A DNA stretch of 64,000 nucleotides, taken from positions 289,158 to 353,157 of the forward strand of contig CBDCME010000073.1 in NCBI GenBank assembly GCA_965218865.1. Direction: 5' to 3'. The notes below the pieces were generated by a model. It worked only from the letters and a program-made list of their open reading frames with translations. It searched no databases and had not been told where the DNA came from. Both the position numbers and the translations under genes were made by a program. Origin of the DNA: Alphaproteobacteria bacterium (GTDB lineage: Bacteria > Pseudomonadota > Alphaproteobacteria > JAAXGF01). Of the stretch, positions 10,663-61,712 are shown in pieces (position 1 is the first letter of the stretch; every line of letters starts with the position of its first letter).

Positions 10663-10686
10663 GGCGGATGCGCACCGCCCCGCGGA

Positions 10687-13170: not shown

Positions 13171-13178
13171 CCCGCGGA

Positions 13179-40744: not shown

Positions 40745-40882
40745 CAGTCTGTTCGAAAACTCGCGGCCCTGGCCCTCTCCCCCTCCCGGCCACCCCTATC
40801 AGCATACTCTCGTGGGTGGCCGGGAGGGGGAGAGGGCCGGAACAGACGCAAAATATGCGCGGACGCGCATTTTCGAACAGAC
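40745..40882. repeat. MITE/REP-like palindromic element, copy 2
   Basis: Same CAGTCTGTTCGAAAA terminal repeats and GGCCACCC.../...GGGTGGCC core as copy 1. Confidence 0.65.
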
Positions 40883-41633: not shown

Positions 41634-41765
41634 GTCTGTTCGAAAATGCGCGTCCGCGCATTTTTTGCGTCCGTTCCGGCCCCCACCCGGCCACCCACGA
41701 GAGGTTGCTGATAGGGGTGGCCGGGAGGGGGCGGGGGCCGGCGCCGCGAGTTTTCGAACAGACTG
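41634..41765. repeat. MITE/REP-like palindromic element, copy 3 (inverted relative to copy 2)
   Basis: Begins 3 bp after the PCD-gene stop codon. Confidence 0.65.
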
Positions 41766-46884: not shown

Positions 46885-47212
46885 CCCCAACTTGGGAGTT
46901 CTTGTCACGCAGACGATTTGATTGGATAAAAAAGAGGCCGCTCGGAGAGACCCAGACCTCGGCGTAAATCGAATAAAGGAACCCCAGAGCGACCGCCGCT
47001 TGCCGTAACTTGTCGAAACCACTTCTACGGCTAGTGGCGGCGCGTGTCAACGGTAGAACGCCGTTGAACGGTCCCTCCCCGTCGCTCTTTTTCCCAACAT
47101 GGCGTGATCTCCCTTACGGAGGGACCAATGACGCATTCCATGCGCCGCGGCCGCGCGAGCGACGCCAACCTCGCCGTGCTGAAGACAACCGAGCATTTCC
47201 AGGGACTGCCAT

Positions 47213-48565
47213 ATGGCTTTGGGCGGTTCGGTCTCCTGCGCTTGGTCAAGGACAACGGCAGGAACAAGAAGACTAAGGCTAGGCGCGAGCGCGATAGCTC
47301 ACTACGAATTCCTTCTCCGATGGACCAGGGACAGGGACTGGACGGAACCGTGCGAACGGCCCGTCGTCTTCCTGCCGGTCGGCAAGACGGCCGAACTACG
47401 GGGCTTGACCGAAGGCCGGGTCCGGCAACTCGAATACGAACTCAACGAGGCCGGGCTGCTCACCTGGACCGACAGGGGCGACTACCGCAGGGGCGGAAAG
47501 CGGGATGCCGATGGGCTCATCCTCTTCGCCCACGGCGTGGACCTCTCTCCTGGGGTTGCAATGTTTCCCGAGTTGTTGAAGACCGACGCCAGGCGGCGGA
47601 AGGAAATTGAGGAACGAACCAAACTGCGGACGCACATAACAAAGCTCAAGGGCTCCGTCAGGCCCCTGCTCGACCGCGCCATCGAGGACGGACTGATAGA
47701 ACCCGGTAAGGCCGAATGGCGGAACACCACCGGAATGCTTTCCACCCGGACGGACGGCAACACGCCGCCGAAGCGGCTTAAAGAGACCGCCGCAAAATTG
47801 GACCGGCTGAGGGCAAGGCTGAGCGGGCGCGTCGAGGCAAACGCCCACTCCATAAAAGCCCTGGGCGGCGGTTGTGGAAAAGCCCGGAAAGCCTGTGGGC
47901 GGACGCGAAAAACTATCGGCGCGTCGATAGAAAACTATCGACCCACAAATACTACAAGGAATCAACAAACCGATAAATCGGTTACTAGTACCCCGTGCTG
48001 TGGACAAAGTACCGCCTGGGGCGGAAATACGGACGCGCCTTCCGGCGCGAAGTCATCCATTGAAACGATCGACGGCAGGGAAAAAGGGGGTCGCGGCCTG
48101 GAGGCCAGGAAAGAGCCTCCGAAGGGAGATCACGACGCCAACGCCGAAAGAGGGCGGGTATGGCGCCAGGCGGGAACGGTCGTGGACGGCCTGGCCGGAA
48201 ACCCGCGGGCGAAAGGCGGCGGGACAGCCAATGGTCCGGACTCGTCTCCCGGCCGCCCTCCAAAGGGCCAATTGTGGAAGCCGGACACGGGAACCCGGCA
48301 CATCAGCCTGCTTAATGCCGTGGAAATCGCCGGGATGCGGCTCCGAAACCGCATCCCGCGAACCGAACAGACGGATTGGGATGCCATCGAGGACGCCGCG
48401 GAAGACCTGTGCCCCGAACTCGGCATCAGCCTGCGGGCGTGGTGGATGGCCGTGACCATTATGGGGCGCAGGGCGGCCGCGGTCTGCGTCATGATCATCG
48501 ACCGGAAAATGTGCCCGATGCGGAAGACCCGGTGCGCTGTCCCGGCGCCTACCTGCGCGGCATGA
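47213..48565 (+). CDS. repC: RepC-like replication initiator protein
   Basis: N-terminal region VVFLPVGKTAELRGLTEGRVRQLEYELNEAGLLTWTDRGDYRRGGKRD and C-terminal LRAWWMAVTIMGRRAAAVCVMIIDRK resemble RepC N- and C-terminal domains (memory). A possible N-terminal extension lies in another frame (47128..), suggesting a frameshift. Confidence 0.5.
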   Translation: MALGGSVSCAWSRTTAGTRRLRLGASAIAHYEFLLRWTRDRDWTEPCERPVVFLPVGKTAELRGLTEGRVRQLEYELNEAGLLTWTDRGDYRRGGKRDADGLILFAHGVDLSPGVAMFPELLKTDARRRKEIEERTKLRTHITKLKGSVRPLLDRAIEDGLIEPGKAEWRNTTGMLSTRTDGNTPPKRLKETAAKLDRLRARLSGRVEANAHSIKALGGGCGKARKACGRTRKTIGASIENYRPTNTTRNQQTDKSVTSTPCCGQSTAWGGNTDAPSGAKSSIETIDGREKGGRGLEARKEPPKGDHDANAERGRVWRQAGTVVDGLAGNPRAKGGGTANGPDSSPGRPPKGQLWKPDTGTRHISLLNAVEIAGMRLRNRIPRTEQTDWDAIEDAAEDLCPELGISLRAWWMAVTIMGRRAAAVCVMIIDRKMCPMRKTRCAVPAPTCAA

Positions 48566-48694: not shown

Positions 48695-50212
48695 TTATCG
48701 TTTCTCGGCCTTCCGGGCGGGCGGGGCGGTGATCTCGGGATAGACCGCGGTCATCACCCGCCACAAATCCGGCCATCCCCCGGGCTTGAGGCGGATACGG
48801 ACCGTGGACCCGTACATCCTGTCCGCTATGGGCGTCAGCGTTATTTTCTCGACCACCAGGCGCAGGGCATCCCTCAGGTATCCCGCCCGCGCCTGTTCGA
48901 GCAGATCCAGCTTCATCCGGTCAAGGGCGCGCCCGAGGGCGAGCCGAACCTCCCTTTCCGACGCCGGAAGCCCGGGAACGGTCTTTATCGCATTCTTCGC
49001 CGCCGTCAATCCCTTCTCTAGCTCCGCCATCCGCTGAAAGACACGTTCGGTCAGCAGTCCCCTTTCGGCCACCTTCAGGAGTTTCTCGATGCCACGGTTC
49101 TTCTCGGCGATCTCCTTCTCCAACGCGGCACGCCGCTCCCGGGCCCCCTCGACGAGAGCGTTCACGCCGGCGAAAAGACCGCGCTGCCGGGACAGGGATT
49201 TCCGCAGGGCCGGGAACAGCGCCCGCACCAGCTCCGGCACCCGCTTGCCGCGCGTGTTGTTGCACGTCCTGGTATAGCGCGCGTCGGCGCAGACGTACTG
49301 CCCCAGATTGGCCAGATGCGCCATGCCGCCGCAGCGCCCGCAACGAACCAGGCCGGTCAAAGGCTGGACGTTGTGGGGATTCCACTCGTGCCAGGCGCGT
49401 TTCTTCGATGCCGGACGCGGCTCCGCCTTCGGCTTGGACTCCCCGCCTGCTTGCGGCCCCCGCTGGCTCAACATGGTCCGCGCGCGATTCCACAGCCTCT
49501 CATTCACGATCCGCAGATGGGGAACCGGCGTGCGGATCCATTCCGATTCAGGATTGATCTTTGGCCGAGACCTTTTCGTCACCGGGTCGGTCACCCGCCG
49601 CGTGCGGTTGTAGACAAGGACGCCCTTGTAAATCTCGTTGCGCAGGGTGCCATCGCCGTTGGACCCCTTCCCATAGATGCTGGCGAACCGCCAAACCGCC
49701 CCGGAAGGCGAGGGGAGGCCGTCGGCGTTCAAGTCCCTGGCTATCGTCTTAATGGGCTTTCCGGCAACGAACTCCTTGAAAATCCGCCGCACCACCACCG
49801 CCTGGGCCTCGTCGATCTCCCGCAGGCCGTTAACGTTCCGGTTCTTCCCGTCGACCACCCCGCGTATCACCCGGTATCCGTAGGCGCGGCCCGAGGCGCG
49901 GCCCGAGGGCTGGCGCCCTTCCTCCGCGCGGGCGCGCTGGCCGCGCCTGATTTTGTCTTTCATGTCGTCAAGATAAATTGCGTTCATCGTCCCCTTGAAG
50001 CCGACGTGAAGCCAGGTGATCCTTCCTTCGTGGGCGGTGTGCATGCCCACCTCATAATACACCAGCCGGGCGTAGATCGCGGCGACGTCCTCCAGACTCC
50101 GGGTAACCCGGTCCAGCCCCTCGGCGACGACGACATCGAACTCCTTCCGTTCCGCGGCCTCCAGCAGCGCCTTCAGACCCTGGCGCCTGTCGGTCGCGCC
50201 GGTGAGTTCATG
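48695..50212 (-). pseudogene. large serine recombinase, C-terminal part (gene split by tandem IS66-like insertion)
   Basis: Recombinase domain, zinc ribbon (CGRCGG ... C) and coiled coil. Reading upstream to the IS junction gives the catalytic-domain sequence ELTGATDRRQGLKALLEAAERKEFDVVVAEGLDRVTRSLEDVAAIYARL. Confidence 0.7.
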
Positions 50213-50272
50213 GGTAATTGTTCGTTCAGGCCGTGGAATCAGCGCGGGCGTTTCTATCCGCCCCGGCGGATT

Positions 50273-51154
50273 TTAGCGATTGAGGCTGCGTTTCCAGTCT
50301 CGTCGCAGGGGCCGGAGCCAGACATCCTTTTTCGGCTTGTCAAACTGCCTGTCCCGGTCGTAGCGCCCGCGCCCCTGGGTGGCGCCGACATGGATCCAGC
50401 CCGATGCCCTGTAGACCGCGCCGGTATATCGCGGGGTCTCGACGAATGTCTCGATGAGCACGGGCGTGGTGTTGTAGCGCTCGGTCCAGTCGTCGGGCAG
50501 GCGCCGGCGGATGATGGCGAGGATGTGCGAGCCCAGGTTGGGGATCTTGATCCAGGGCAGGATCAGGAACCTCGGGTTGTCGACCACGAAGGGAAGGTTC
50601 TTCTCGCGCAGTTGCCGTGTCCATCCGATGAAGGTGTCGCGCGTGGCAAGCTTCCACGCGGCGGTGGAGAAGCCGAGCATGGCGAGTGGCCAGCCGTTTC
50701 GGTCATGGACGGCATAGCGCATCTGGGCGCCGACCAGGGTCTTGTATCCGAGATAGTGGTAGCGGGCGACGAACTCGTTCCAGAGCTTCCCTTCCCGGGT
50801 GCCGCGCACGACGGGGTGCAGGTCGAGCGGACGGACCTCGTCGAGGGTCGTCGGGGCCGGGAACAGCGGCGGTTCGGTGTCCGGCCCGAAGACGATCGGC
50901 CCGGGCCGGTTCTGCCGTCCCCGCGGCGCCGGCAGGGCGATCAGGCCGTCCCTGTGCATGGCCAGCATAGCGACCCTGGCCATCATGTCCTTGAGGCCGC
51001 CGTCGGGCTTGAACCAGCCGATGCGCCGGCAGAACTCCTTCGACAGCATATGGCGGTTCAACGGCGGCGGCCCGGCGATCAGCGCGCGCAGCAGCGCCAT
51101 TTCCCCGGCGGTGAAATCGCGGCCGTAATAACGGCACTCGATCTTGCCGGTCAT
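50273..51154 (-). CDS. standalone DUF4338 (DruA-like) protein, translationally coupled to tnpC
   Basis: Start MTGKIECRYYG overlaps the tnpC stop as ATGA. Motifs FIGW, DNPRFLILPW, ETFVE, YRASGW. Confidence 0.7.
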   Translation of the reverse strand: MTGKIECRYYGRDFTAGEMALLRALIAGPPPLNRHMLSKEFCRRIGWFKPDGGLKDMMARVAMLAMHRDGLIALPAPRGRQNRPGPIVFGPDTEPPLFPAPTTLDEVRPLDLHPVVRGTREGKLWNEFVARYHYLGYKTLVGAQMRYAVHDRNGWPLAMLGFSTAAWKLATRDTFIGWTRQLREKNLPFVVDNPRFLILPWIKIPNLGSHILAIIRRRLPDDWTERYNTTPVLIETFVETPRYTGAVYRASGWIHVGATQGRGRYDRDRQFDKPKKDVWLRPLRRDWKRSLNR

Positions 51155-53820
51155 CCCGGCGCCATGAGCTCGCGCCTGCGGTCCTCGCTCATCGACCATG
51201 GCAGCCACGGCGACATGTCATCCGGCGGTTTGCGGCCGTTCTTCGCGCAGGCTTCGAGCCACGCTTCCAGCCAGCGCAGGACGTCGATGCCGTTCATCGA
51301 GAGCGTGCCCACCACCGAGTACATGATCGCCGTGAACCTGGCGCCGTCCTCGCTGTTCGAACCGAAGCTTAATCGTCGTCCGATGACTGGCCCCCGGAGC
51401 GCGCGCTCGGCCTTGTTGTTGTCCATCGGAACCTGTGGCTTGTCGACGAAGACGCACAACCCCTCGCGGTGGTTGAGAAGCGAGCGCAGCGGCTTGGCCC
51501 TGCGCGCCCTCTCCGACAGGCCGGCCAACTCCGCTTCGGCGTCCGCGAACAGGCGGGCGACCGCCGCTTCCAACTCGCCCTGCGCCGCGTCGAACGCCGG
51601 TGTCCGGCGTTCGAGACCGGGGTCGTAATGCTCCAGCCGCGCCTCGTTCAGCCGGTAGATCTCCGCGATCCGCTCGATCCATCCCTGGCACCAGCCCGTC
51701 AGTCTCACCTGGCCGGCCGCGCACTCGATAAAATCGCGGCGCATATGGGACCAGCAGAATGCAAGGGTCACCTTGCCCTCGCGAAGGCGAGCGAGTCGCT
51801 TGTAGGCGCTATAGCGGTCGCAGACGATGACCGTGTCGAGGAGGCCTTCGGCGAACAGCTCGAGCGCCGCCTCGGCGCTGCGCGAGGGGTCGATATGGAA
51901 AGAGACCGCGTCATTGCTGACCGAGGTCCACAGCCAGGCCCGGCTCGACCGGTCTTCCCCGCGAAGCTCCTGGACGCGCCAACCGGTCTCGTCGGCGTGG
52001 CGCAGCGCCGCCTTGTTCTGGTGCGCGAGGATCGCCTTGGCGACCGGCTCGAACAGCGGCACGAAACGCTTCAGGCTGTCGGCCAGCGTCCCCGGTGAGA
52101 CCCCCAGGCCCTGGCTGGAGAACCACGCGGCAACCCGGTGCAGGGGGCGCAAGCAGGCACAGTGCTCGAACAGGAAGCGTGCCCAGAAGCTGGTCCCGTA
52201 GAGCGTCCTGGGGAACAGCCGCAGCACCGGGGGCGACGACACTTCCATGGGCGACGACGCGCACTCGCAGGTCCGGCGCCAGCGCGGACGGCGGATCACA
52301 CGCTTGTGGGCCTTGACCTCGATCTCGACGAGGGTGGATTCCTCGGCGCCGTTCGGCGCATAGGGCTGCCCGCACCGTCCGCAGACGCACGCATCCGGCG
52401 GCGGGTTGTGCTCTTCGGTGCGCTCCTTGAGCCCGGGCCGCTGGGTGCGGCCATGGCCGGGCGCGCCGCGCTGCTGGCCGCGCTTGCGTTCCGAGCCCGG
52501 CTTGTCCTGCTGTTCGCTCTTGCGGCCGTAGAGCGCCCTCGACAGCACAGCTCCGGTCGCGCGAAGCCTCTCAAGCTGGACTTCCAGCGTCTCGATCCGG
52601 TTCCGCGACGTCTTCGCGCCCTTGCGCAGCCGGGCGTTCTCCCGGGACAGCGACTTGATCGTGGCCTTCTGGCGCCGCGACCTTCGCAGAGCCCTGCGGA
52701 GATCGGCGTCTGCAACGGACAGCGACTTCGACAACGTCTTCCTGACCGCTCGAAGCCCGGCAAGCTCGGACTCGAGTGCCTTCCTGATCGCGCGAAGCTT
52801 GGCAGGCTGAACCTCCAGCGCCGCTTTCCGGGTCTCCAACTTCCGCATGGTCCTGCGCAGACGGGCGTTGTCCTTGCGCAGCGCCTCGATCGTCGTCTTC
52901 TGGCGCCGCGCTCGCCGCAACGCCGCGCGCAATTGAGCGGCCTCGTCGGACGGCAGCTTCGACAGCGTCGCCCCGGCCGCCCGGAGCTTGACGAGCCGGG
53001 CCTTCAACTTCTCCTGCCCGGCCTTGAACACCTCCAGGGCATGGCGCAGCCAGAAGACCTCGTCGGACAGCGATCGGGCCCGGGCCTCGCTGTCGCCCAG
53101 TATCCTCACCTCCCGATGGAGCCGAAGGGACTCGCTGGACAGCTTCCTGGCGGCCTCCCTGATGCTCTCCGTGCTCTCCTTCTCCCGGTCGAGGCGCTTG
53201 TTCAACTGGAGGATCTGCTTGTCCCGCCGGACCGCCTCGTTGTTGAGCCGGGTGATCTCCTTGCGTAGCGTCCTGATGGTGTCCTTCTGGTCCGGGGATC
53301 GCTCCAGGGCGGTGAGCCGCCGACGGGTCTCCGCGGGCCGCGGGCCGATCGCGCCCTCTCGGGCCTCCGGCGCGACCAGGGCCTTGCGCAGCCGGGCGTT
53401 CTCCTTGCGCAGCGCCTCGGTCGTGCTGCTCTCGTTCGACCCGATGCCGGCTTCGGAGAGGAGCGTCTCCAGGCGCGCCACTTCGGCCTGCAAGGAAGGC
53501 ACGTCCCTTGCCGCGCGGCGAGCTTCCTTCGTCTCCTCGACGGCCTCGCTCAACCTGCGCCGGCAGGCCTTGAACCGCGACTTCCACGAGCCGGCATCGC
53601 TACGCGAGGCCACTTCCGCCCAGCGTAGCTCTTCCGCGCGCGCTTCGGCCGCGTCCGCGCGGGCGCGCTCCCGCTCATACAGCGAGCGCAAGTCGCGCGG
53701 CGCGCGCTCCGGTAAGGACACCGGGCACGACCGGACCCCGCCATTACCCTCGACCAGCGTCAGGTCGGTGCCAAAATCCTCGTCCAGAACCGCCATGCGC
53801 TCGACGATAGCGCACGGCAA
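51151..53820 (-). CDS. tnpC: IS66-family transposase TnpC with extended N-terminal coiled coil
   Basis: 889 aa. Zinc-finger CxxC (ACVCGRCGQP) and the IS66 DDE core (HADETGWRV ... CDRYSAYK ... CWSHMRRDF). The N-terminal ~450 aa form a coiled coil with repeated (T/A)I(K/E)xLxxENARLR motifs. Confidence 0.8.
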   Translation of the reverse strand: MPCAIVERMAVLDEDFGTDLTLVEGNGGVRSCPVSLPERAPRDLRSLYERERARADAAEARAEELRWAEVASRSDAGSWKSRFKACRRRLSEAVEETKEARRAARDVPSLQAEVARLETLLSEAGIGSNESSTTEALRKENARLRKALVAPEAREGAIGPRPAETRRRLTALERSPDQKDTIRTLRKEITRLNNEAVRRDKQILQLNKRLDREKESTESIREAARKLSSESLRLHREVRILGDSEARARSLSDEVFWLRHALEVFKAGQEKLKARLVKLRAAGATLSKLPSDEAAQLRAALRRARRQKTTIEALRKDNARLRRTMRKLETRKAALEVQPAKLRAIRKALESELAGLRAVRKTLSKSLSVADADLRRALRRSRRQKATIKSLSRENARLRKGAKTSRNRIETLEVQLERLRATGAVLSRALYGRKSEQQDKPGSERKRGQQRGAPGHGRTQRPGLKERTEEHNPPPDACVCGRCGQPYAPNGAEESTLVEIEVKAHKRVIRRPRWRRTCECASSPMEVSSPPVLRLFPRTLYGTSFWARFLFEHCACLRPLHRVAAWFSSQGLGVSPGTLADSLKRFVPLFEPVAKAILAHQNKAALRHADETGWRVQELRGEDRSSRAWLWTSVSNDAVSFHIDPSRSAEAALELFAEGLLDTVIVCDRYSAYKRLARLREGKVTLAFCWSHMRRDFIECAAGQVRLTGWCQGWIERIAEIYRLNEARLEHYDPGLERRTPAFDAAQGELEAAVARLFADAEAELAGLSERARRAKPLRSLLNHREGLCVFVDKPQVPMDNNKAERALRGPVIGRRLSFGSNSEDGARFTAIMYSVVGTLSMNGIDVLRWLEAWLEACAKNGRKPPDDMSPWLPWSMSEDRRRELMAPG

Positions 53821-53984
53821 ATTCCGTTACCAGCAGAAAGACAGCACCTCGTGGGCTTCGCCTCAACTTGGGAAATGCGCTTGACGGCACCCATTCCACG
53901 GCCTGAACGAACACTTACCGCGCGTGTAATTGTTCGTTCAGGCCGTGGAATCAGCGCGGGCGTTTCTATCCGCCCCGGCGGATT

Positions 53985-54866
53985 TTAGCGATTGAGGCTG
54001 CGTTTCCAGTCTCGTCGCAGGGGCCGGAGCCAGACATCCTTTTTCGGCTTGTCAAACTGCCTGTCCCGGTCGTAGCGCCCGCGCCCCTGGGTGGCGCCGA
54101 CATGGATCCAGCCCGATGCCCTGTAGACCGCGCCGGTATATCGCGGGGTCTCGACGAATGTCTCGATGAGCACGGGCGTGGTGTTGTAGCGCTCGGTCCA
54201 GTCGTCGGGCAGGCGCCGGCGGATGATGGCGAGGATGTGCGAGCCCAGGTTGGGGATCTTGATCCAGGGCAGGATCAGGAACCTCGGGTTGTCGACCACG
54301 AAGGGAAGGTTCTTCTCGCGCAGTTGCCGTGTCCATCCGATGAAGGTGTCGCGCGTGGCAAGCTTCCACGCGGCGGTGGAGAAGCCGAGCATGGCGAGTG
54401 GCCAGCCGTTTCGGTCATGGACGGCATAGCGCATCTGGGCGCCGACCAGGGTCTTGTATCCGAGATAGTGGTAGCGGGCGACGAACTCGTTCCAGAGCTT
54501 CCCTTCCCGGGTGCCGCGCACGACGGGGTGCAGGTCGAGCGGACGGACCTCGTCGAGGGTCGTCGGGGCCGGGAACAGCGGCGGTTCGGTGTCCGGCCCG
54601 AAGACGATCGGCCCGGGCCGGTTCTGCCGTCCCCGCGGCGCCGGCAGGGCGATCAGGCCGTCCCTGTGCATGGCCAGCATAGCGACCCTGGCCATCATGT
54701 CCTTGAGGCCGCCGTCGGGCTTGAACCAGCCGATGCGCCGGCAGAACTCCTTCGACAGCATATGGCGGTTCAACGGCGGCGGCCCGGCGATCAGCGCGCG
54801 CAGCAGCGCCATTTCCCCGGCGGTGAAATCGCGGCCGTAATAACGGCACTCGATCTTGCCGGTCAT
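53985..54866 (-). CDS. standalone DUF4338 (DruA-like) protein (copy 2)
   Basis: Identical to the 50273..51154 product. Confidence 0.7.
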   Translation of the reverse strand: MTGKIECRYYGRDFTAGEMALLRALIAGPPPLNRHMLSKEFCRRIGWFKPDGGLKDMMARVAMLAMHRDGLIALPAPRGRQNRPGPIVFGPDTEPPLFPAPTTLDEVRPLDLHPVVRGTREGKLWNEFVARYHYLGYKTLVGAQMRYAVHDRNGWPLAMLGFSTAAWKLATRDTFIGWTRQLREKNLPFVVDNPRFLILPWIKIPNLGSHILAIIRRRLPDDWTERYNTTPVLIETFVETPRYTGAVYRASGWIHVGATQGRGRYDRDRQFDKPKKDVWLRPLRRDWKRSLNR

Positions 54867-57532
54867 CCCGGCGCCATGAGCTCGCGCCTGCGGTCCTCGC
54901 TCATCGACCATGGCAGCCACGGCGACATGTCATCCGGCGGTTTGCGGCCGTTCTTCGCGCAGGCTTCGAGCCACGCTTCCAGCCAGCGCAGGACGTCGAT
55001 GCCGTTCATCGAGAGCGTGCCCACCACCGAGTACATGATCGCCGTGAACCTGGCGCCGTCCTCGCTGTTCGAACCGAAGCTTAATCGTCGTCCGATGACT
55101 GGCCCCCGGAGCGCGCGCTCGGCCTTGTTGTTGTCCATCGGAACCTGTGGCTTGTCGACGAAGACGCACAACCCCTCGCGGTGGTTGAGAAGCGAGCGCA
55201 GCGGCTTGGCCCTGCGCGCCCTCTCCGACAGGCCGGCCAACTCCGCTTCGGCGTCCGCGAACAGGCGGGCGACCGCCGCTTCCAACTCGCCCTGCGCCGC
55301 GTCGAACGCCGGTGTCCGGCGTTCGAGACCGGGGTCGTAATGCTCCAGCCGCGCCTCGTTCAGCCGGTAGATCTCCGCGATCCGCTCGATCCATCCCTGG
55401 CACCAGCCCGTCAGTCTCACCTGGCCGGCCGCGCACTCGATAAAATCGCGGCGCATATGGGACCAGCAGAATGCAAGGGTCACCTTGCCCTCGCGAAGGC
55501 GAGCGAGTCGCTTGTAGGCGCTATAGCGGTCGCAGACGATGACCGTGTCGAGGAGGCCTTCGGCGAACAGCTCGAGCGCCGCCTCGGCGCTGCGCGAGGG
55601 GTCGATATGGAAAGAGACCGCGTCATTGCTGACCGAGGTCCACAGCCAGGCCCGGCTCGACCGGTCTTCCCCGCGAAGCTCCTGGACGCGCCAACCGGTC
55701 TCGTCGGCGTGGCGCAGCGCCGCCTTGTTCTGGTGCGCGAGGATCGCCTTGGCGACCGGCTCGAACAGCGGCACGAAACGCTTCAGGCTGTCGGCCAGCG
55801 TCCCCGGTGAGACCCCCAGGCCCTGGCTGGAGAACCACGCGGCAACCCGGTGCAGGGGGCGCAAGCAGGCACAGTGCTCGAACAGGAAGCGTGCCCAGAA
55901 GCTGGTCCCGTAGAGCGTCCTGGGGAACAGCCGCAGCACCGGGGGCGACGACACTTCCATGGGCGACGACGCGCACTCGCAGGTCCGGCGCCAGCGCGGA
56001 CGGCGGATCACACGCTTGTGGGCCTTGACCTCGATCTCGACGAGGGTGGATTCCTCGGCGCCGTTCGGCGCATAGGGCTGCCCGCACCGTCCGCAGACGC
56101 ACGCATCCGGCGGCGGGTTGTGCTCTTCGGTGCGCTCCTTGAGCCCGGGCCGCTGGGTGCGGCCATGGCCGGGCGCGCCGCGCTGCTGGCCGCGCTTGCG
56201 TTCCGAGCCCGGCTTGTCCTGCTGTTCGCTCTTGCGGCCGTAGAGCGCCCTCGACAGCACAGCTCCGGTCGCGCGAAGCCTCTCAAGCTGGACTTCCAGC
56301 GTCTCGATCCGGTTCCGCGACGTCTTCGCGCCCTTGCGCAGCCGGGCGTTCTCCCGGGACAGCGACTTGATCGTGGCCTTCTGGCGCCGCGACCTTCGCA
56401 GAGCCCTGCGGAGATCGGCGTCTGCAACGGACAGCGACTTCGACAACGTCTTCCTGACCGCTCGAAGCCCGGCAAGCTCGGACTCGAGTGCCTTCCTGAT
56501 CGCGCGAAGCTTGGCAGGCTGAACCTCCAGCGCCGCTTTCCGGGTCTCCAACTTCCGCATGGTCCTGCGCAGACGGGCGTTGTCCTTGCGCAGCGCCTCG
56601 ATCGTCGTCTTCTGGCGCCGCGCTCGCCGCAACGCCGCGCGCAATTGAGCGGCCTCGTCGGACGGCAGCTTCGACAGCGTCGCCCCGGCCGCCCGGAGCT
56701 TGACGAGCCGGGCCTTCAACTTCTCCTGCCCGGCCTTGAACACCTCCAGGGCATGGCGCAGCCAGAAGACCTCGTCGGACAGCGATCGGGCCCGGGCCTC
56801 GCTGTCGCCCAGTATCCTCACCTCCCGATGGAGCCGAAGGGACTCGCTGGACAGCTTCCTGGCGGCCTCCCTGATGCTCTCCGTGCTCTCCTTCTCCCGG
56901 TCGAGGCGCTTGTTCAACTGGAGGATCTGCTTGTCCCGCCGGACCGCCTCGTTGTTGAGCCGGGTGATCTCCTTGCGTAGCGTCCTGATGGTGTCCTTCT
57001 GGTCCGGGGATCGCTCCAGGGCGGTGAGCCGCCGACGGGTCTCCGCGGGCCGCGGGCCGATCGCGCCCTCTCGGGCCTCCGGCGCGACCAGGGCCTTGCG
57101 CAGCCGGGCGTTCTCCTTGCGCAGCGCCTCGGTCGTGCTGCTCTCGTTCGACCCGATGCCGGCTTCGGAGAGGAGCGTCTCCAGGCGCGCCACTTCGGCC
57201 TGCAAGGAAGGCACGTCCCTTGCCGCGCGGCGAGCTTCCTTCGTCTCCTCGACGGCCTCGCTCAACCTGCGCCGGCAGGCCTTGAACCGCGACTTCCACG
57301 AGCCGGCATCGCTACGCGAGGCCACTTCCGCCCAGCGTAGCTCTTCCGCGCGCGCTTCGGCCGCGTCCGCGCGGGCGCGCTCCCGCTCATACAGCGAGCG
57401 CAAGTCGCGCGGCGCGCGCTCCGGTAAGGACACCGGGCACGACCGGACCCCGCCATTACCCTCGACCAGCGTCAGGTCGGTGCCAAAATCCTCGTCCAGA
57501 ACCGCCATGCGCTCGACGATAGCGCACGGCAA
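54863..57532 (-). CDS. tnpC: IS66-family transposase TnpC (copy 2)
   Basis: Identical to the 51151..53820 product. Confidence 0.8.
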   Translation of the reverse strand: MPCAIVERMAVLDEDFGTDLTLVEGNGGVRSCPVSLPERAPRDLRSLYERERARADAAEARAEELRWAEVASRSDAGSWKSRFKACRRRLSEAVEETKEARRAARDVPSLQAEVARLETLLSEAGIGSNESSTTEALRKENARLRKALVAPEAREGAIGPRPAETRRRLTALERSPDQKDTIRTLRKEITRLNNEAVRRDKQILQLNKRLDREKESTESIREAARKLSSESLRLHREVRILGDSEARARSLSDEVFWLRHALEVFKAGQEKLKARLVKLRAAGATLSKLPSDEAAQLRAALRRARRQKTTIEALRKDNARLRRTMRKLETRKAALEVQPAKLRAIRKALESELAGLRAVRKTLSKSLSVADADLRRALRRSRRQKATIKSLSRENARLRKGAKTSRNRIETLEVQLERLRATGAVLSRALYGRKSEQQDKPGSERKRGQQRGAPGHGRTQRPGLKERTEEHNPPPDACVCGRCGQPYAPNGAEESTLVEIEVKAHKRVIRRPRWRRTCECASSPMEVSSPPVLRLFPRTLYGTSFWARFLFEHCACLRPLHRVAAWFSSQGLGVSPGTLADSLKRFVPLFEPVAKAILAHQNKAALRHADETGWRVQELRGEDRSSRAWLWTSVSNDAVSFHIDPSRSAEAALELFAEGLLDTVIVCDRYSAYKRLARLREGKVTLAFCWSHMRRDFIECAAGQVRLTGWCQGWIERIAEIYRLNEARLEHYDPGLERRTPAFDAAQGELEAAVARLFADAEAELAGLSERARRAKPLRSLLNHREGLCVFVDKPQVPMDNNKAERALRGPVIGRRLSFGSNSEDGARFTAIMYSVVGTLSMNGIDVLRWLEAWLEACAKNGRKPPDDMSPWLPWSMSEDRRRELMAPG

Positions 57533-57630
57533 ATTCCGTTACCAGCAGAAAGACAGCACCTCGTGGGCTTCGCCTCAACTTGGGAAATGCGCTTGACGGC
57601 ACCCATTCCACGGCCTGAACGAACACTTAC

Positions 57631-57787
57631 GTTCATGGTCCGAAAACACAGCCGCTTCGCCGCCAGGGACACAGAACTCCCGCTCGATCAGCCTTCGGCA
57701 CAGCGCGACCTGATCGGCGACGCTCAGCGGATTCTGAATTTTCGACGAATAGCGGGCGTAGATTGCCGCTTTCGGCTTCGCTTTCAT
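57631..57787 (-). pseudogene. large serine recombinase, N-terminal fragment (catalytic Ser region)
   Basis: MKAKPKAAIYARYSSKIQNPLSVADQVALCRRLIEREFCVPGGEAAVFSDHE, then the IS66 TIR. It continues in frame with the 48695..50212 fragment across the insertion. Confidence 0.7.
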
Positions 57788-57959
57788 CGTCTTCCTTGCA
57801 TCGCGCACGGAGACGGAAACCTAGCGGTTTGCCGGTGAAAGTCAAAACGCCCGCAGAGGGGTCCATCAGGATCGGCGCGGACGGCGCAACGCATTGATAT
57901 ATCGTTGAAATTCTATTTCGACCCGGAGCGTTCATCGACGCGCGAAGCCGTAGGGATTC

Positions 57960-58255
57960 CAATGCGCGCAACGAAAAACATGGAAAAACATGATTATCGG
58001 AAAGCGAAACATGAAAAAACATGATTTGCCCGTAACATATTGATTTATCGCCTTGAATCCCAAACCATGCCGAACATTTCCGCAATTTGCTGAACGTTAC
58101 GACCAGTTTCACAAACCTTTCGTGTCCATGCAACCCATTGATATAACATCATATTTTCCTTAAATTTCCTACAATTTCCCTAAATTTATCTGATTTCCTT
58201 AAATTTCCTGCCGTTTGATGGCAGGTTATGCAATGTGGGCCCACACATTGCCCAC
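57960..58255. repeat. AT-rich iteron-like region (4x AAACATGA, 3x TCCTTAAATTTCCT-like, two short palindromes)
   Basis: GC drops far below window average. Direct repeats at 57974-58024 and 58155-58208. Palindromes CCTGCC-N7-GGCAGG and GCAATGTG-N6-CACATTGC. Confidence 0.45.
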
Positions 58256-58429
58256 GGCCTTTGTCCGCGGATGCTTATTTCGCGCCTCCGGCGCTCAACG
58301 CTGTAAAAGGGAGTTTTGATTTGCGGCGGCTGTTTTAGCAGCCGGCAAGGCGGCGCGGATTCGCTGGAAAGATTGCCCCAAAACATGGGCCGGGCTCGGC
58401 GGCCGGCGGCTTCGGGGAGCGATTCCCCC

Positions 58430-61134
58430 TCAGCGCCCGAGGCCGCTTTCGGCGGCACGCGACGGCGCCAGGCGGGACAGCCCGGCCAGTTGCCGCCTGA
58501 TCTCCGGGCGCCGGGCCGCCTCGCGCCACATCTCGCCGAAGGTTGTTTTGCCTTCTTTCGCCGGAGGTGGAACGATCACCTTGCCGTTCACCGCCTTGGC
58601 GGCTTCCCTAGCGTCGGACCGCCCCCTCGCCGCCGCGGCGTTATCGGTGGCGACAACGATTCCGGCCTTCGGATGTTTGAGGCGCCACGCCTCGGCGACC
58701 GCCTTGAGGTTGTCCGCACCGAAGGCGCAAAGCGTCCGCCGGCCCGTGGCCTCGTGGATGGCGGCGGCGGACGCCAGGTCCTTGGCGATAACGGCGTCGC
58801 CCTTGCCGCCGGGTTTCTCCTTGCCGATCCCGAACATCAGGCCCTCGGGGCTTCCGGAGGCCCAGGCGCTCGGCGGTCTCGCCATTATCGTCCAGGGCGC
58901 ACAAGCCCCAGACGCGCCCGCTTGCATCGGTCAACGGAACCAGGACATGCTTGTCCCGGCGCAGGTTCTCCACGGGAAGGCCGGGCGGCAGCCCTTGCGG
59001 CGTACCGTCCTTGCCGAGGGGCTCGGCGTTTCGCCAGCGCAGCCACACGGCGTCCCCCGGCGGGACGGGCCAGCACATCGCGGATTTTGTCGGGATCGCC
59101 CGCCCTTTCCGCGAACGACGCGGCGCCTTCGGGAACGGCGAGGGTGGCGCGCGTTTCCCCGGCCGATTCCTTCAGGGATCCGGCCCGTTCCTTGTCCGCC
59201 GCGATGACCAGCTTGCCGTCCGGATAGCGTTCCCGCAGCGCCCGCGCGAGGTCTCCCATCTTGTCCGCCTCTTCCGCCACCGCCCACGGGCAGCCTCGTG
59301 GCCTTGTGGATCGCCGCGCCCGAGAGATAGTCGCCGGCGACGACGATCGCGTCCTTGCCGGCCCGCCGCCCCGGATCGATCACGTGCATCAGCGCCCAGA
59401 CCCACGCCGCCGTCCTGGCCTGAACCCTGCCGGCGCGGCGCGTCCCGCCGTCCCTGGCGATGAACTTGACATCATGGAGCCGGCCGTGGACGTCCTTGAG
59501 CGGCATGGCCACGCCGCCGTCCGGCGCCAGCTTGAGGCCGAATCCTCGGACCCGGTTCTCCATCAGCCAGGGCGTGTTGCCGGGGGTGGTCCCACGGCGC
59601 GCCCTTGAGTTCCGTCCACGCCATTTGCGCCTTGTCGCCCACCAGAGGCGCGAGCCTTGCCCGCAAATCCGCGGGCTTCACCGTCCCGGTCCGATCGTCG
59701 TTCCATTCCTTCACTTCCAGGGCCTCGACGCCGACCGCCCTGGCCCGCTCGGCGAAAGCCGCCGCCCCGGCGGCCGCGATCTTACAATCCGCATGTTTGG
59801 CGCGCAGGCAGGCGGCCGCGGCCTTGAGGTCTCCGCCCTTAGGCACCAACGCCACAGGCGCGTGCGCGGCGTTGCGAACGGCGGCGGCGGCGGCGATATT
59901 ATCGGTTAGCACCACGGCCGGGGGCTTCCCGCCCGCTTCGATTCTCCGCTCCGGGTCGATGACGTGCAGCAATCCCTTCTTGCCGAGGTTTCCGATCTCC
60001 GTCGTCTTTCCGTCCGGCTTGAGAACCTGCAAGCCCCCATACGTGGCCGTCCTTGCCGCGGAACGGAACCATCAGGTTGCCGCTTCCGTCCTCCCTCAAT
60101 CCCAGACTCCGCGCCCCGCCCTTTTCCTTGACCCACGGCCCGGCCGTTCCATCCGCCCACTTGCCCGCGTCGATCCAGTGCCTCAGTGCCGGACGCAGGG
60201 TCCGGGGCAGCCGGTCCCGGCCACCATCGCCGAAGGCCCGGAACATCTTCTTGTAGGTCATGATGACGACCAGGGCCAAGGGATCGCGGTAGGCCTCGTT
60301 GATGAGAAACTGCTTCCAGTCCGCCGCTATTCTCCCGGCCAGCGTTTTCGGACGCCTTCTCCGTCCAGTGAAGGTCCGCCACAGGCGCGAAGCCCCGGGG
60401 TGCCGGGTCAGGGGCTTTGCGCTGTAGCGCCGGCGCGGCTTGGACGCGCTCGCCTTGTCCATGGATTCGTAAGGGCCCAAGCGCTCTTTCAGCTTGCTGA
60501 ACGTGAGGTCCGGGCCCGCGAGGCTCGCCTTGACCACCTCCGGGCCGTCCCGCCGTTTCAACGCCAGGCCGGCGCCGCGCCGTTTGATCTCGATATCGAA
60601 GGCGGCGAGCCCCTGGTGCAACTCGCGCCAGGTGCGCGCCTTCCCGGCGATCCCGAGAATCTCTTTCCTGTTGTCGAGAACGTGGTTCTGAAACGATTGG
60701 CGCCAGGTCCGCGCCTCGAAGTCCCGCGCCGCCGGGTGCGCAACGGCGCGGCCCTTGCCGTCCCGGTTGTCGTAGTCGGACCCGCCGAGATCGACGTGAA
60801 GCCCGTACTTTCTCTCCATCGCCCGGCACGTCCTCTCCAGCGCCTTGTAGTCGTTCCACGGCGTGTGGACCGTCAGCTTCCCGGGATGGACCCTGTTGAT
60901 GGCCACGTGCATGTGAAAGTTGTCGGTGTTTTCGTGCGTCCCCGCCACCCGCTGGTGCTCGCCGAAGCCCAGGGCCTCGGCGATGGCCAGGTCCAGGTCC
61001 ACCTCGTCCCCGCCGGCGCAATTGACCGTCCACAGGTCCACCAGCTTCTCGCCCTTTTCCTTGGCCGCCGCGATGTATCCGGACAAGCACCCGAATTTTC
61101 CCTTCACCGTCCGGCCGATCTTCTTGGCGATCAT
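58430..61134 (-). pseudogene. traI: MOBP-family relaxase (RP4 TraI-like); N-terminal relaxase domain intact, C-terminal region broken over at least 4 frames
   Basis: N-terminal part 59899..61134 shows MIAK ... YI ... VNC ... GFGEHQRV ... HENTDNFHMHVAINRVHP (3-His motif). Downstream, repeated about 90-aa modules appear in the ORFs 59472..60032, 58931..59563, 58885..59280 and 58430..58927, each in a different frame. Confidence 0.7.
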
Positions 61135-61391
61135 CCGCGCCCGGAGATTTTCACGATGCAGGCCCCGATCAATTTTTGGGTCTCGCGGATTCCCTCGTAC
61201 AGCTTCCTCGTCTCTCCGATAAACGCGGACGAGACGCGGCTCGCGCCCAAGGCGTCCAGCACCGCCAGGAGGAGATTACCGAGCCGGGCCTGATCGGCGT
61301 TGACCTTCATCAAATCGCGCCGCGCCGACGCCTCGATCCGGCTCGCAGGGATTCCGCGGCCCACCACGAGGCGGCGGACGTATTCCGACAC
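61131..61391 (-). CDS. mobC: MobC-like relaxosome accessory protein
   Basis: 86 aa. Motif DLMKVNADQARLGNLLLAVLDAL resembles the MobC family. Stop/start overlap with the relaxase gene. Confidence 0.55.
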   Translation of the reverse strand: MSEYVRRLVVGRGIPASRIEASARRDLMKVNADQARLGNLLLAVLDALGASRVSSAFIGETRKLYEGIRETQKLIGACIVKISGRG

Positions 61392-61654
61392 GGGACAATC
61401 CCAAACGGGAGGCGGCGGCGCAAATCCCGGCCTTTTCCTCCGCGCTTACGTAAGCCTTCAAGAAAATCTGCTGGCGGCGCTTCTTCCTCGCCACCGCTAT
61501 CCGCTTTCCGGCTTGGCCCGGCTCGCCGGCTGGATGATTGAACCCGCCGGGCGCGGCCTCGTCCCCGGCGTCCACGGTTGCCGCTTCACCGCCGTCCATT
61601 CCATGTCTCATCTTTCCCTGCCTCCACCCCTTTTTCCTCTGCCGTGATCCCTAT

Positions 61655-61712
61655 GACGGCTTGCGACCGCAAGCCGTCACACCCTTGATTTTACCCCGTT
61701 TCCGGTATCCGG
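61655..61712. promoter_or_regulatory. candidate oriT (12-bp inverted repeat TGACGGCTTGCG..CGCAAGCCGTCA followed by nic-like GGTATCCGGCG)
   Basis: Strong inverted repeat about 270 bp upstream of mobC. The nearby TATCCGG is one mismatch from the MOBP nic core ATCCTG. Confidence 0.3.

What the first reader, a model, noticed from the sequence alone, without database searches (positions are those of the whole stretch)
57960..58255. AT-rich island with iteron-like direct repeats and palindromes between the recombinase start and the relaxase end
Four copies of AAACATG(A/G) lie within 50 bp. Three TCCTTAAATTTCCT-like repeats lie within 55 bp, followed by two palindromes (CCTGCC-N7-GGCAGG; GCAATGTG-N6-CACATTGC). 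GC content collapses here in an otherwise 65% GC window. The location, about 150 bp upstream of the serine-recombinase start, fits a replication origin, a partition site, or the recombinase attachment site.
Basis: seen in the sequence. Interest (0 to 1): 0.5.

Follow-up and report, generated by a model that had tools for sequence, protein, structure and literature searches.

The report
Decayed IncP-type transfer origin (oriT)
The AT-rich island is the origin of conjugative transfer (oriT) of a decaying mobile element integrated in an alphaproteobacterial chromosome, followed by the control region of its serine recombinase gene; it is a recognisable relative of the plasmid RP4 oriT and is not a replication origin, partition site or recombinase attachment site.

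Summary
The interpretation needs changing. Read on the minus strand, 58313-58207 is collinear with the RP4/IncP oriT. It has the conserved block GTTGAGCGCCGGAGGCGCGAAATAAG. Eight relatives carry the canonical ATCCTG at that position.

The TTTCCTTAAA repeats are six helically phased units that start about 12 nt past the nick. The AAACATG repeats are a second phased array, bracketed by perfect IHF-consensus sites, upstream of a conserved sigma-70-like promoter for the large serine recombinase (LSR).

The flanking genes are a TraJ-like gene and a TraI/MobA(P) relaxase. Gene order is traJ - traI - oriT - LSR - repC-like, and it recurs in relatives with 40-79% LSR identity.

The window copy is crippled: the nick core carries T>A, the relaxase has frameshifts and a deletion, and the LSR is split by an IS dimer.

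What binds the two repeat arrays is inferred, not shown. This is a new member of a known kind, of modest interest.

The parts
58274..58313 (-). Conserved IncP-type oriT block, CTCCCTTTTACAGC-GTTGAGCGCCGGAGGCGCGAAATAAG. It contains the small hairpin GCGCC-GGA-GGCGC. The window copy has one extra A (GCGAAATAAG) compared with all relatives.
   Evidence: Alignment A1. Motif tables, which include RP4-type L013, pMATVIM-7 L008 and pMSR-1 L016. blastn hit of the L003 ortholog to the traJ-traK intergenic region of IncP/MOBP plasmids. The extra A is absent in the near-identical L014.
58230..58251 (.). oriT inverted repeat, GCAATGTG-N6-CACATTGC (10-nt arms if one mismatch is allowed). On the minus strand, the nick-proximal arm ends 8 nt 5' of the predicted nick.
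   Evidence: I14; relatives have different arm sequences (GCAATGTAG, AGTGAGTGGG, TGTCCATAC, TGCGCGGTGA; RP4 GTGAAGAAGG), and the proximal arm always ends 7-8 nt from the nick.
58220..58229 (-). Nick region ATAACCTG|CC. The predicted nick position lies between 58222 and 58221 on the minus strand. The core is AACCTG in place of the canonical ATCCTG.
   Evidence: Relatives have ATATCCTG|CC or CTATCCTG|CC. The AACCTG variant is shared by L014 and L015. The MOBP core ATCCTG and consensus (C/T)ATCCTG(C/T) come from PMC3772185.
58207..58225 (.). Palindrome that spans the nick, CCTGCC-ATCAAAC-GGCAGG. It is conserved in the alphaproteobacterial relatives and absent from IncP plasmids.
   Evidence: Read directly from the sequence. 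Comparison.
58150..58212 (-). These are phased A-tracts.
   Evidence: TRF. One search gives unit positions 58160, 58170, 58180, 58199 and 58209. One search gives the periodicity (0 of 2000 shuffles reach it). Orthologous arrays have altered units: GGAGAAT in L005, GGAGAA in L007, CGACAAA in pMSR-1.
58131..58143 (-). IHF-consensus box 1, TATCAATGGGTTG, inside the conserved stretch AATATGATGTTATATCAATGGGTT.
   Evidence: The core ATCAATG(G/T)GTT is conserved in L002, L003, L005 and L007.
58033..58045 (-). IHF-consensus box 2, AATCAATATGTTA.
57967..58026 (-).
   Evidence: Orthologous arrays use yGGTTCTTTT or CCGTTCTTTT in L003, L005 and L007, arranged 4+2 or 3+3. The units occur nowhere else in the loci held.
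57887..57899 (-). IHF-consensus box 3, TATCAATGCGTTG.
57791..57845 (-). Putative LSR promoter and leader: -35 TTGACT (57845-57840), 16-nt spacer, -10 TAGGTT (57823-57818), and ribosome-binding site AAGGAAG (57797-57791).
   Evidence: GTTTTGACTTT is invariant in 7 sequences of alignment A1. The promoter assignment is inferred.
57631..57787 (-). 5' fragment of the large serine recombinase gene (first 52 codons). It is cut off by the IS dimer.
   Evidence: Reconstitution gives a 555-aa protein that is 100% identical to P0001.
50214..57630 (-). Head-to-tail dimer of a 3705-bp IS66-family element that interrupts the LSR gene. The 8-bp target-site duplication GTTCATGG flanks the dimer.
   Evidence: The insertion is absent from L014 and L015.
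48695..50205 (-). Remainder of the LSR gene.
58430..61134 (-). TraI/MobA(P)-type relaxase gene with three Toprim-like C-terminal modules. In the window it is a pseudogene: six frame segments and an in-frame N-terminal deletion of about 40 aa.
61131..61491 (-). TraJ/NikA-like ribbon-helix-helix accessory gene, with one frameshift.
47183..48565 (+). RepC-like (RP-C) gene, convergent with the LSR gene. It is the last gene of the element in the relative L010.

Best explanation
The island is the oriT region of an integrated conjugative or mobilizable element. The element's relaxosome genes (a TraJ-like protein and a TraI/MobA(P) relaxase) are IncP-like.

Read on the minus strand, the order is: a conserved block; an inverted repeat, which in RP4 is the binding site for TraJ and the relaxase; and, 8 nt further on, the nick region. 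In a functional copy the relaxase would cut after ...ATCCTG and stay bound to the 5' end. The minus strand would then be transferred 5' to 3'. The phased repeats, the IHF sites and the LSR gene would therefore be the first DNA to enter a recipient, and the relaxase gene the last.

The two arrays of 10-bp-phased repeats, together with the IHF sites, are proposed to form a bent nucleoprotein scaffold on the leading side of the nick. This would parallel the TraK-binding bent region that overlaps the traK promoter in RP4. It would help relaxosome assembly and also control the sigma-70-like LSR promoter immediately downstream. The proteins bound would be lineage-specific and encoded by the element.

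In this window the system is dead or nearly so. The nick core is AACCTG, the relaxase and traJ-like genes are frameshifted and carry a deletion, and the LSR gene is split by an IS dimer.

Shown here: homology and collinearity with IncP oriT, conservation in relatives, phasing of the repeats, IHF-consensus matches, and gene decay. Inferred: the nick position, the transfer direction, the binding proteins, the promoter, and the loss of function.
For: 1. Collinearity with IncP oriT. The block GTTGAGCnCCGnnAGGnGCGAATAAG is followed by 44-54 nt that contain an inverted repeat, and then by the nick region. The proximal arm of the repeat ends 7-8 nt before the nick. This layout is the same in the window, L014, L003, L005, L007, L010, pMSR-1 (L016), the IncP-like L012 and RP4-type pBS228 (L013). 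My recalled RP4 oriT sequence was verified at 100% identity in IncP-1 plasmids, between traJ and traK.
2. Independent hit. An unbiased blastn of the L003 ortholog lands in the traJ-traK intergenic region of IncP/MOBP plasmids.
3. The repeat arms covary. There are five different arm sequences at the same position.
4. Cognate genes. The L007 and L010 relaxases exceed the NCBIfam TraI/MobA(P) cut-off (294.7 and 298.5 bits against 250). The neighbouring gene is TraJ-like.
5. Uniqueness. Each locus has only one such block.
6. Literature. MOBP relaxases need ATCCTG with an inverted repeat just upstream (PMC3772185). IncP oriT lies between traJ and traK (PMC3614916).
7. Leading-side logic. In L010 the genes after the LSR gene are a ParB-like gene, ssb and repC-like. 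They are oriented with the predicted transferred strand as template, and the element ends there, next to ubiB, ubiE and fpg.
8. Phased 10-mer arrays just past the nick recur with different unit sequences in relatives. They also occur in the IncP-like L012, upstream of traK.
9. The periodicity is the strongest in the window, and three perfect IHF-consensus sites are present.
10. Decay is documented.
Against: - The window's own nick core is AACCTG, which fails the strict ATCCTG requirement. Three independent assemblies share this variant, so this copy may never be nicked.
- No TraK homolog was found in any locus held.
- The oriT lies 3' of traI, not between divergent traJ and traK, so the analogy for the repeat arrays is architectural only.
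- Array 2 and IHF boxes 2 and 3 are absent from L010 and pMSR-1. They are therefore not required for the oriT core and may serve only to regulate the LSR gene.
- No binding, nicking or transfer data exist.
- Some of the window's indels could be assembly errors. The two 1-nt indels that separate the window from L014 are both extra bases in the window.
Confidence: 0.78

Rival explanations
1. Array 2 (the AAACATG repeats), with IHF boxes 2 and 3, is purely a transcriptional control region for the LSR promoter. An element-encoded repressor or activator binds the phased units, and IHF loops them onto the promoter. On this reading the array has no role in the relaxosome.
For: - Array 2 co-occurs with the conserved GTTTTGACTTT promoter motif. 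Both are present in the window and in L002-L007, and both are absent from L010 and pMSR-1.
- An IHF site lies between the array and the -35 element.
- The units occur nowhere else in the loci held.
Against: - This is compatible with the main explanation and does not replace it.
- No candidate regulator gene was identified.
- In RP4 the region flanking the nick serves both functions.
- In L010 and pMSR-1, a single array does whatever is needed, directly next to the nick.
Confidence: 0.3
2. The left half of the island is a vegetative replication origin. On this reading it is made of iterons, IHF sites and an AT-rich unwinding element, and the RepC-like initiator uses it to replicate the excised element.
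For: - The island has direct repeats in helical phase, IHF sites and low GC.
- A RepC-like gene belongs to the conserved module.
- The repeat sequence changes in concert between relatives, as iterons do.
Against: - There are no DnaA boxes.
- The units are 10-mers, not 17-22-bp iterons.
- The repC-like gene is convergent with the LSR gene, which separates it from the island. In L010 a further 5 kb of genes also lie between them.
- The gene has its own internal AT-rich segment with repeats. From established knowledge, the origin of repABC replicons lies inside repC.
- The repC upstream region of L003 lacks the island's units.
- Array 2 is absent from L010 and pMSR-1.
Confidence: 0.08
3. The island holds the recombination site of the large serine recombinase: either attP or attL/attR, or a res-like multimer-resolution site. 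One of the palindromes would be the crossover site.
For: - The site lies immediately upstream of the recombinase gene, as in many serine-recombinase systems.
- It contains palindromes with dyad symmetry.
- The oriT-LSR adjacency is conserved down to 40% LSR identity, and on pMSR-1 it holds even though no relaxase gene is adjacent.
Against: - Both palindromes are already accounted for as the oriT inverted repeat and the nick region, which are homologous to IncP plasmids that have no LSR.
- In integrated copies the island has element genes on both sides, so it is not an element junction (window; L010).
- The L003 repeat is a perfect 20-bp palindrome with a symmetric centre, which would give a serine recombinase no polarity.
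- LSR homologs at 35-37% identity on plasmids lack this region.
Confidence: 0.06
4. The island is a partition centromere: a parC-like array of phased repeats bound by a ribbon-helix-helix adaptor.
For: Two blocks of 10-bp-phased direct repeats recall parC of plasmid R1.
Against: - No ParA/ParM-type ATPase or small ParR/ParG-type gene is adjacent.
- The only ParB_N gene starts at 63378, 5 kb away, and its L007 ortholog is a large (791 aa) ParB_N protein.
- The element is chromosomally integrated.
Confidence: 0.03

Closest known systems
oriT of IncP-1 plasmids (RP4/RK2; represented here by pBS228 L013, pMATVIM-7 L008 and pLH3.4 L009)
   Same: - Conserved block GTTGAGCnCCGnnAGGnGCGAATAAG.
- An inverted repeat whose proximal arm ends 8 nt before the nick.
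- Nick region (C/T)ATCCTG|CC in the relatives.
- TraI/MobA(P) relaxase and a TraJ-like accessory protein.
- AT-rich, bent or repeat-bearing DNA on the leading side of the nick that overlaps the promoter of the first leading gene.
   Different: - The oriT lies 3' of the relaxase gene, not between divergent traJ and traK.
- No TraK homolog was found.
- The first leading-side gene is a large serine recombinase.
- An extra palindrome spans the nick.
- There are two arrays of 10-bp-phased repeats and three IHF-consensus sites.
- The window copy has AACCTG.
Agrobacterium T-DNA border / VirD2 nick region (from established knowledge; the ATCCTG requirement is cited from PMC3772185)
   Same: The relatives' ATATCCTG|CCA is identical over 11 nt to the bottom strand of the T-DNA border core, and it contains the same ATCCTG hexamer.
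   Different: Borders are 25-bp direct repeats without the IncP block or the proximal inverted repeat. The comparison rests on a border sequence recalled from memory and was not retrieved here.
IncP islands and GIsul2 (integrative mobilizable elements with IncP-like TraI, TraJ and TraK plus Rep proteins; reviewed in PMC5704250)
   Same: These are chromosomally integrated elements that carry an IncP-type relaxosome and a plasmid-type replication initiator gene (RepA or RepC).
   Different: They use tyrosine integrases that target the 3' end of guaA, and they keep traK and trbJKL. Here the recombinase is a large serine recombinase, the initiator is of the RP-C type, and the oriT sits between traI and the recombinase gene.
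pMSR-1 of Magnetospirillum gryphiswaldense (NC_009353)
   Same: It has the same oriT block, a perfect 20-bp inverted repeat, CTATCCTG|CCA, a palindrome spanning the nick, and five phased 10-mers directly upstream of a 40%-identical LSR gene.
   Different: It is a free plasmid. The gene upstream is umuD rather than a relaxase. It has a single repeat array with a different unit (CGACAAA). The oriT is not annotated, and MOB-suite types the plasmid as non-mobilizable.

Membership tests
IncP/MOBP-type oriT | Nick-region core hexamer 5'-ATCCTG-3' (consensus (C/T)ATCCTG(C/T)) | tested here: not met
   The window has ATAACCTG|CC, which matches 5 of 6 core positions (T>A). The same variant is in L014 and L015. 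The orthologous position in L003, L005, L007, L010, L011 and pMSR-1 is ATCCTG|CC. The window copy is therefore filed as a mutated homolog of this oriT, not as a demonstrably functional one.
IncP/MOBP-type oriT | Inverted repeat immediately 5' of the nick, with the proximal arm about 8 nt from the cut | tested here: met
   The proximal arm of GCAATGTG-N6-CACATTGC ends 8 nt before the predicted nick. RP4 has the same spacing. The arms covary across relatives.
IncP/MOBP-type oriT | Sequence homology to the IncP-1 oriT outside the nick (block GTTGAGCnCCGnnAGGnGCGAATAAG at a conserved distance) | tested here: met
   Window 58274-58299 matches with one inserted A. The distance from the block to the core is 46 nt, against 47 nt in RP4. 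blastn of the ortholog hits the traJ-traK spacer of IncP plasmids.
IncP/MOBP-type oriT | Cognate TraI/MobA(P) relaxase and TraJ-type accessory protein encoded nearby | tested here: met
   For NCBIfam NF041893, the intact orthologs score 294.7 and 298.5 bits against a cut-off of 250. The window pseudogene scores 223.3 and covers only profile positions 96-304. L007 has a TraJ-like hit at 3e-16, below the curated cut-off. The window genes are frameshifted.
IncP/MOBP-type oriT | Location between divergent traJ and traK, with TraK binding the leading side | tested here: not met
   The oriT lies 3' of traI and 5' of the LSR gene. tblastn with three TraK proteins finds nothing below E = 0.25.
IncP/MOBP-type oriT | Site- and strand-specific nicking, and mobilisation in cis | not testable with these tools
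   This needs nicking or mating assays.
Iteron-type replication origin (oriV) | Iterons next to, and bound by, the product of an adjacent rep gene, together with DnaA boxes and an unwinding element | tested here: not met
   There are no DnaA boxes, even with a relaxed pattern. The repC-like gene is convergent and distal, and it has its own internal AT-rich repeats. The units are 10-mers. Array 2 is missing in L010 and pMSR-1. Binding is untestable here.
Large-serine-recombinase attachment site | Lies at the junction between element and host DNA in the integrated state (attL/attR) | tested here: not met
   Element genes lie on both sides of the island in the window and in L007 and L010. In L010 the element ends beyond the repC-like gene.
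Large-serine-recombinase attachment site | Imperfect dyad of about 40-50 bp around an asymmetric central dinucleotide, bound by the LSR | tested here: inconclusive
   Dyads exist, but they are explained by homology to oriT. The L003 dyad is perfectly symmetric. Binding is untestable here.
Plasmid partition centromere | Adjacent partition ATPase gene and centromere-binding protein gene | tested here: not met
   The Pfam scans of the neighbouring genes show none.

The most novel reading that the evidence does not exclude
The pairing of oriT with the LSR gene may be a functional cassette and not merely a neighbourhood. It is conserved from 79% down to 40% LSR identity, in chromosomal elements and on the plasmid pMSR-1, and on pMSR-1 it persists although the gene upstream is umuD and not a relaxase. 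On this reading, the phased repeat arrays and IHF sites past the nick are accessory sites through which the serine recombinase, or a partner protein, acts on freshly transferred DNA. Possible roles are coupling recircularisation at oriT to integration or to concatemer resolution, or timing a burst of recombinase expression on entry. The nick-spanning palindrome, which is specific to this clade, would be part of that coupling.
Probability: 0.1. Interest if true: 0.6.

Novelty: new member of a known kind. Interest (0 to 1): 0.3.

Why it matters
- It corrects the annotation of an eye-catching AT-rich island. The region is a transfer origin, not a replication, partition or attachment site.
- It defines the oriT of an uncharacterised family of alphaproteobacterial integrative elements (traJ - traI/Toprim - oriT - LSR - ... 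- repC-like). The signature GTTGAKCGCCGGAGGCGCGAATAAG - inverted repeat - ATCCTGCC is simple to search for.
- The same signature reveals an unannotated oriT on pMSR-1, a plasmid typed as non-mobilizable.
- The window copy is a clear example of a mobile element decaying in place. The cis site, the relaxase, the accessory gene and the recombinase are all damaged, so the element should not be counted as a transmissible island.

Tried and rejected
- blastn of the island against PLSDB plasmids at the default E-value found nothing. Only a relaxed search with an ortholog exposed the IncP match.
- Rfam gave no hit.
- The single genome-contig scan with the LSR protein returned only a 23%-identical Peptococcaceae locus, which was of no use.
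- The look-up of encoding contigs failed for P0001, P0009 and P0014.
- The RepC-like protein has essentially no relatives in PLSDB: one hit at 26% identity. A plasmid-replicon comparison was therefore impossible.
- Folding the predicted transferred strand (57790-58330) as single-stranded DNA gave z = -0.31. There is no Frpo- or ssi-like extended structure.
- TraK homologs were not found.
- DnaA boxes and CtrA boxes are absent from the island. GANTC sites are not enriched.
- The island's repeat units were sought elsewhere in each locus, for example at other promoters or upstream of repC. None were found.
- LSR homologs at 35-37% identity on Haematobacter, Paracoccus and Komagataeibacter plasmids lack the oriT block. 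The adjacency is therefore limited to the clade.
- I considered whether the frameshifts are assembly errors. Housekeeping genes such as ruvB are intact, and an in-frame 40-aa deletion cannot be such an error. However, one frameshift (extra G near 58861) and the extra A in the block are absent from the near-identical L014, so individual indels remain uncertain.
Full report
**Observation.** The region was read on both strands.
There are four AAACATG copies at 57976-58023, which is 4 of the 8 matches in the 64-kb window, where 4.1 are expected for the whole window.
- A 10-bp-period repeat TTTCCTTAAA runs from 58155 to 58209 (TRF, 5.6 copies). Exact TCCTTAAATTTCCT copies lie at 58157 and 58196.
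- The palindromes are GCAATGTG-N6-CACATTGC at 58230-58251 and CCTGCC-N7-GGCAGG at 58207-58225.
- GC falls to 0.365, against a window mean of 0.634.
- Two features were not in the original list. Three perfect IHF-consensus sites (WATCAANNNNTTR) lie on the minus strand at 57887, 58033 and 58131; the window has 5 against 0.36 expected. The AA/TT 10-bp periodicity is the strongest anywhere in the window, and 0 of 2000 shuffles reach it.

**Surroundings.** The window is chromosomal. It carries ruvABC, tol-pal, tilS, ftsH, folP, glmM, hflKC and purB.
- To the left of the island, on the minus strand, a large serine recombinase (LSR) gene starts at 57787. After 52 codons it is interrupted by a head-to-tail dimer of a 3705-bp IS66-family element (50214-57630). 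The dimer as a whole is flanked by an 8-bp duplication.
- Splicing out the dimer gives a 555-aa protein that is 100% identical to a database protein.
- To the right, also on the minus strand, lie a TraJ/NikA-like gene and a TraI/MobA(P)-type relaxase gene with three Toprim-like C-terminal modules.
- Compared with the intact 944-aa ortholog in L007, the window relaxase falls into six frame segments and lacks about 40 N-terminal residues in frame. The traJ-like gene has one frameshift, and the repC-like gene differs in frame at both ends.
- A RepC-like (RP-C) gene lies convergent to the LSR gene.

**Relatives.** LSR homologs with 79-48% identity were traced to metagenomic contigs.
- The island is conserved upstream of the LSR gene in all of them (alignment A1).
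- The order traJ-like - relaxase - island - LSR - convergent repC-like recurs in L007. In the other short contigs it recurs in part.
- In L010, a circular 3.1-Mb chromosome, the order is: type IV secretion genes - traJ-like - relaxase - Bro-N - island - LSR - ParB-like - ssb - ... - repC-like. The housekeeping genes ubiB, ubiE and fpg follow directly. These are therefore integrated conjugative elements, and the island is internal to them.
- L014 and L015 are 99.5-99.96% identical to the window but lack the IS dimer. L014 instead carries a different IS end inside the relaxase gene.

**What the right half is.** On the minus strand, the family shares this sequence: CTCCCTTTTACnGC GTTGAGCGCCGGAGGCGCGAATAAG, then 44-54 nt that contain an inverted repeat, then ATATCCTGCCATCACACGGCAGG.
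- A relaxed blastn of the L003 ortholog hit many IncP/MOBP plasmids in unannotated DNA. In pMATVIM-7 and pLH3.4 that position is the traJ-traK spacer.
- The RP4 oriT sequence that I recalled from memory matched IncP-1 plasmids at 100% identity, between traJ and traK.
- Side-by-side tables show three shared features. The first is the same block. The second is an inverted repeat whose nick-proximal arm ends 7-8 nt before the nick; in RP4 this is GTGAAGAAGG...CCTACTTCAC followed by 8 nt. The third is the nick region (C/T)ATCCTG|CC.
- The repeat arms differ between relatives (GCAATGTG, GCAATGTAG, AGTGAGTGGG, TGTCCATAC, TGCGCGGTGA) while their position is fixed. This is the pattern expected of a recognition hairpin.
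- MOBP relaxases require ATCCTG with an inverted repeat just upstream (PMC3772185). IncP oriT lies between traJ and traK, and TraI nicks within ATCCTG (PMC3614916).
Each locus has only one such site.
- The window's core is AACCTG. This T>A change is shared by L014 and L015. The window also has an extra A in the block.

**Direction of transfer (inferred).** By analogy with RP4, the minus strand would be cut between 58222 and 58221 and transferred 5' to 3'.
- The repeats, the IHF sites and the LSR gene would enter a recipient first, and the relaxase gene last.
- This fits L010. There the genes after the LSR gene are a ParB-like gene, ssb and repC-like. ParB-like and ssb genes are typical of conjugative leading regions (from established knowledge). 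These genes are oriented with the predicted transferred strand as template, and the element ends there.

**The repeats.** Array 1 (the TTTCCTTAAA repeats) is six AGGAAAT-type units at 10-bp spacing. It starts about 12 nt after the nick, and its first unit overlaps the right arm of the nick palindrome.
- Orthologs of array 1 keep the phase but change the unit: GGAGAAT in L005, GGAGAA in L007 and CGACAAA in pMSR-1.
- An IncP-like metagenomic element (L012) has about 20 phased 10-mers (ATCACAnnGA) between the nick and traK.
- Array 2 (the AAACATG repeats) is four TCATGTTTTT units arranged 2 + 2, spaced 10, 21 and 10 nt. Orthologs use yGGTTCTTTT or CCGTTCTTTT in 4+2 or 3+3 arrangements, always in helical phase, and the units are found only in the island.
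- Array 2 lies between IHF boxes 2 and 3, upstream of an invariant GTTTTGACTTT with a plausible -10 element 16 nt downstream.
- L010 and pMSR-1 lack both array 2 and that promoter motif, and they have a single array next to the nick.
- My reading is that these are lineage-specific protein-binding arrays which, together with IHF, bend the leading side of oriT and control the LSR promoter. The parallel is the TraK-binding region that overlaps the traK promoter in RP4 (from established knowledge). No TraK homolog was found, so the binding protein or proteins are unknown.

**Rival explanations.**
- A vegetative origin is unlikely. There are no DnaA boxes, the units are 10-mers, and the repC-like gene is distal and convergent. 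That gene also has its own internal AT-rich repeat segment, as the intragenic origins of repABC replicons do (from established knowledge).
- An LSR attachment site is unlikely. The island is internal to integrated copies, and both palindromes are explained by homology to IncP plasmids that have no LSR.
- A partition site lacks partner genes.
- The transferred strand shows no unusual global folding (z = -0.31).

**An unexpected regularity.** The oriT-LSR adjacency extends to pMSR-1 of Magnetospirillum gryphiswaldense, whose LSR is 40% identical.
- There the same block, a perfect 20-bp inverted repeat, CTATCCTG|CCA and five phased 10-mers sit directly upstream of the LSR gene, although the gene upstream is umuD.
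- LSR homologs at 35-37% identity on other plasmids lack the oriT block.
- Whether the adjacency reflects functional coupling is open.

**Comparison with known systems.** The closest system is the IncP-1 oriT. The block, the inverted-repeat geometry, the nick region and the TraI/TraJ genes are the same. The differences are the position 3' of traI, the absence of TraK, the nick-spanning palindrome, the two arrays, and the LSR gene as the first leading-side gene.
- IncP islands and GIsul2 (PMC5704250) are integrated elements with IncP-type relaxosomes and Rep proteins, but they use tyrosine integrases that target guaA.

**Verdict.** It is a new member of a known kind, and this copy is very probably defunct. 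Interest is modest at 0.3. The open questions are:
- the identity of the proteins that bind the arrays;
- the role of the block, which remains conserved although no traJ promoter is needed at this position;
- the meaning of the oriT-LSR linkage.

Noticed in passing
window 50214-57630: Two identical 3705-bp IS66-family copies lie head to tail, separated by a 7-nt spacer (CGCGCGT). The 8-bp target duplication GTTCATGG flanks the dimer as a whole, not each copy. Each copy encodes a DruA/DUF4338 protein and an 889-aa IS66 transposase with a coiled-coil N-terminal extension of about 450 aa that contains 65-nt internal repeats. The near-identical loci L014 and L015 lack the insertion.
   Followed up: partly
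window 10677-15600: A gene for a 775-aa protein that fuses a DruA domain to a DDE_Tnp_1 transposase is duplicated in tandem, with a period of 2492 nt. This is a second case of head-to-tail IS copies in the same window.
   Followed up: no
window 38305-40385 and 44802-46884: Two perfect 2.08-kb inverted copies of a third DruA + DDE_Tnp_1 IS (610 aa) bracket 4.4 kb that carries a pterin dehydratase gene, a DUF2165 gene and an IS5-like transposase gene. This could be a composite transposon or an invertible segment. An end of this IS is also inserted in the relaxase gene of L014. In total, three different transposase types in this window are linked to a DruA (PF14236) domain.
   Followed up: partly
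window 5524-5619, 40745-40840, 41646-41741: Palindromic repeat units of about 96 nt, GC-rich, with long internal hairpins, occur in both orientations. They look like REP or MITE elements.
   Followed up: no
window 47880-48060 (inside the repC-like gene 47183-48565): GC dips to 0.49 in the middle of the gene. The segment holds two GAAAACTATCG repeats and small palindromes (CTATCG...CGATAG, CCGATAAATCGG). It resembles the intragenic origin of repABC-type repC genes.
   Followed up: partly
window ~61654-61679 (minus strand): A hairpin with a perfect 11-bp stem, TGACGGCTTGC-GGTC-GCAAGCCGTCA, lies just upstream of the traJ-like gene. It could be an operator or a terminator. It is not an oriT-like site: it has no ATCCTG and no IncP block.
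   Followed up: no
window 58430-60030 (relaxase 3' half): The relaxase C-terminus consists of three repeated Toprim_3-like modules, seen as self-hits within L007 residues 370-944. In L003 the last module is called as a separate overlapping ORF.
   Followed up: partly
L016 5764-5935 (pMSR-1, NC_009353.1, reverse complement of about 7361-7532): The Magnetospirillum gryphiswaldense plasmid pMSR-1 is typed as non-mobilizable by MOB-suite. It nevertheless carries an unannotated IncP-type oriT (block, 20-bp palindrome, CTATCCTG|CCA, five phased 10-mers) between umuD and its serine recombinase gene.
   Followed up: partly
window 58278 and 58861, compared with L014: The window differs from the near-identical short-read assembly L014 by two 1-nt indels: an extra A in the oriT block, and an extra G that frameshifts the relaxase. 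Either could be a real mutation or an assembly error.
   Followed up: partly
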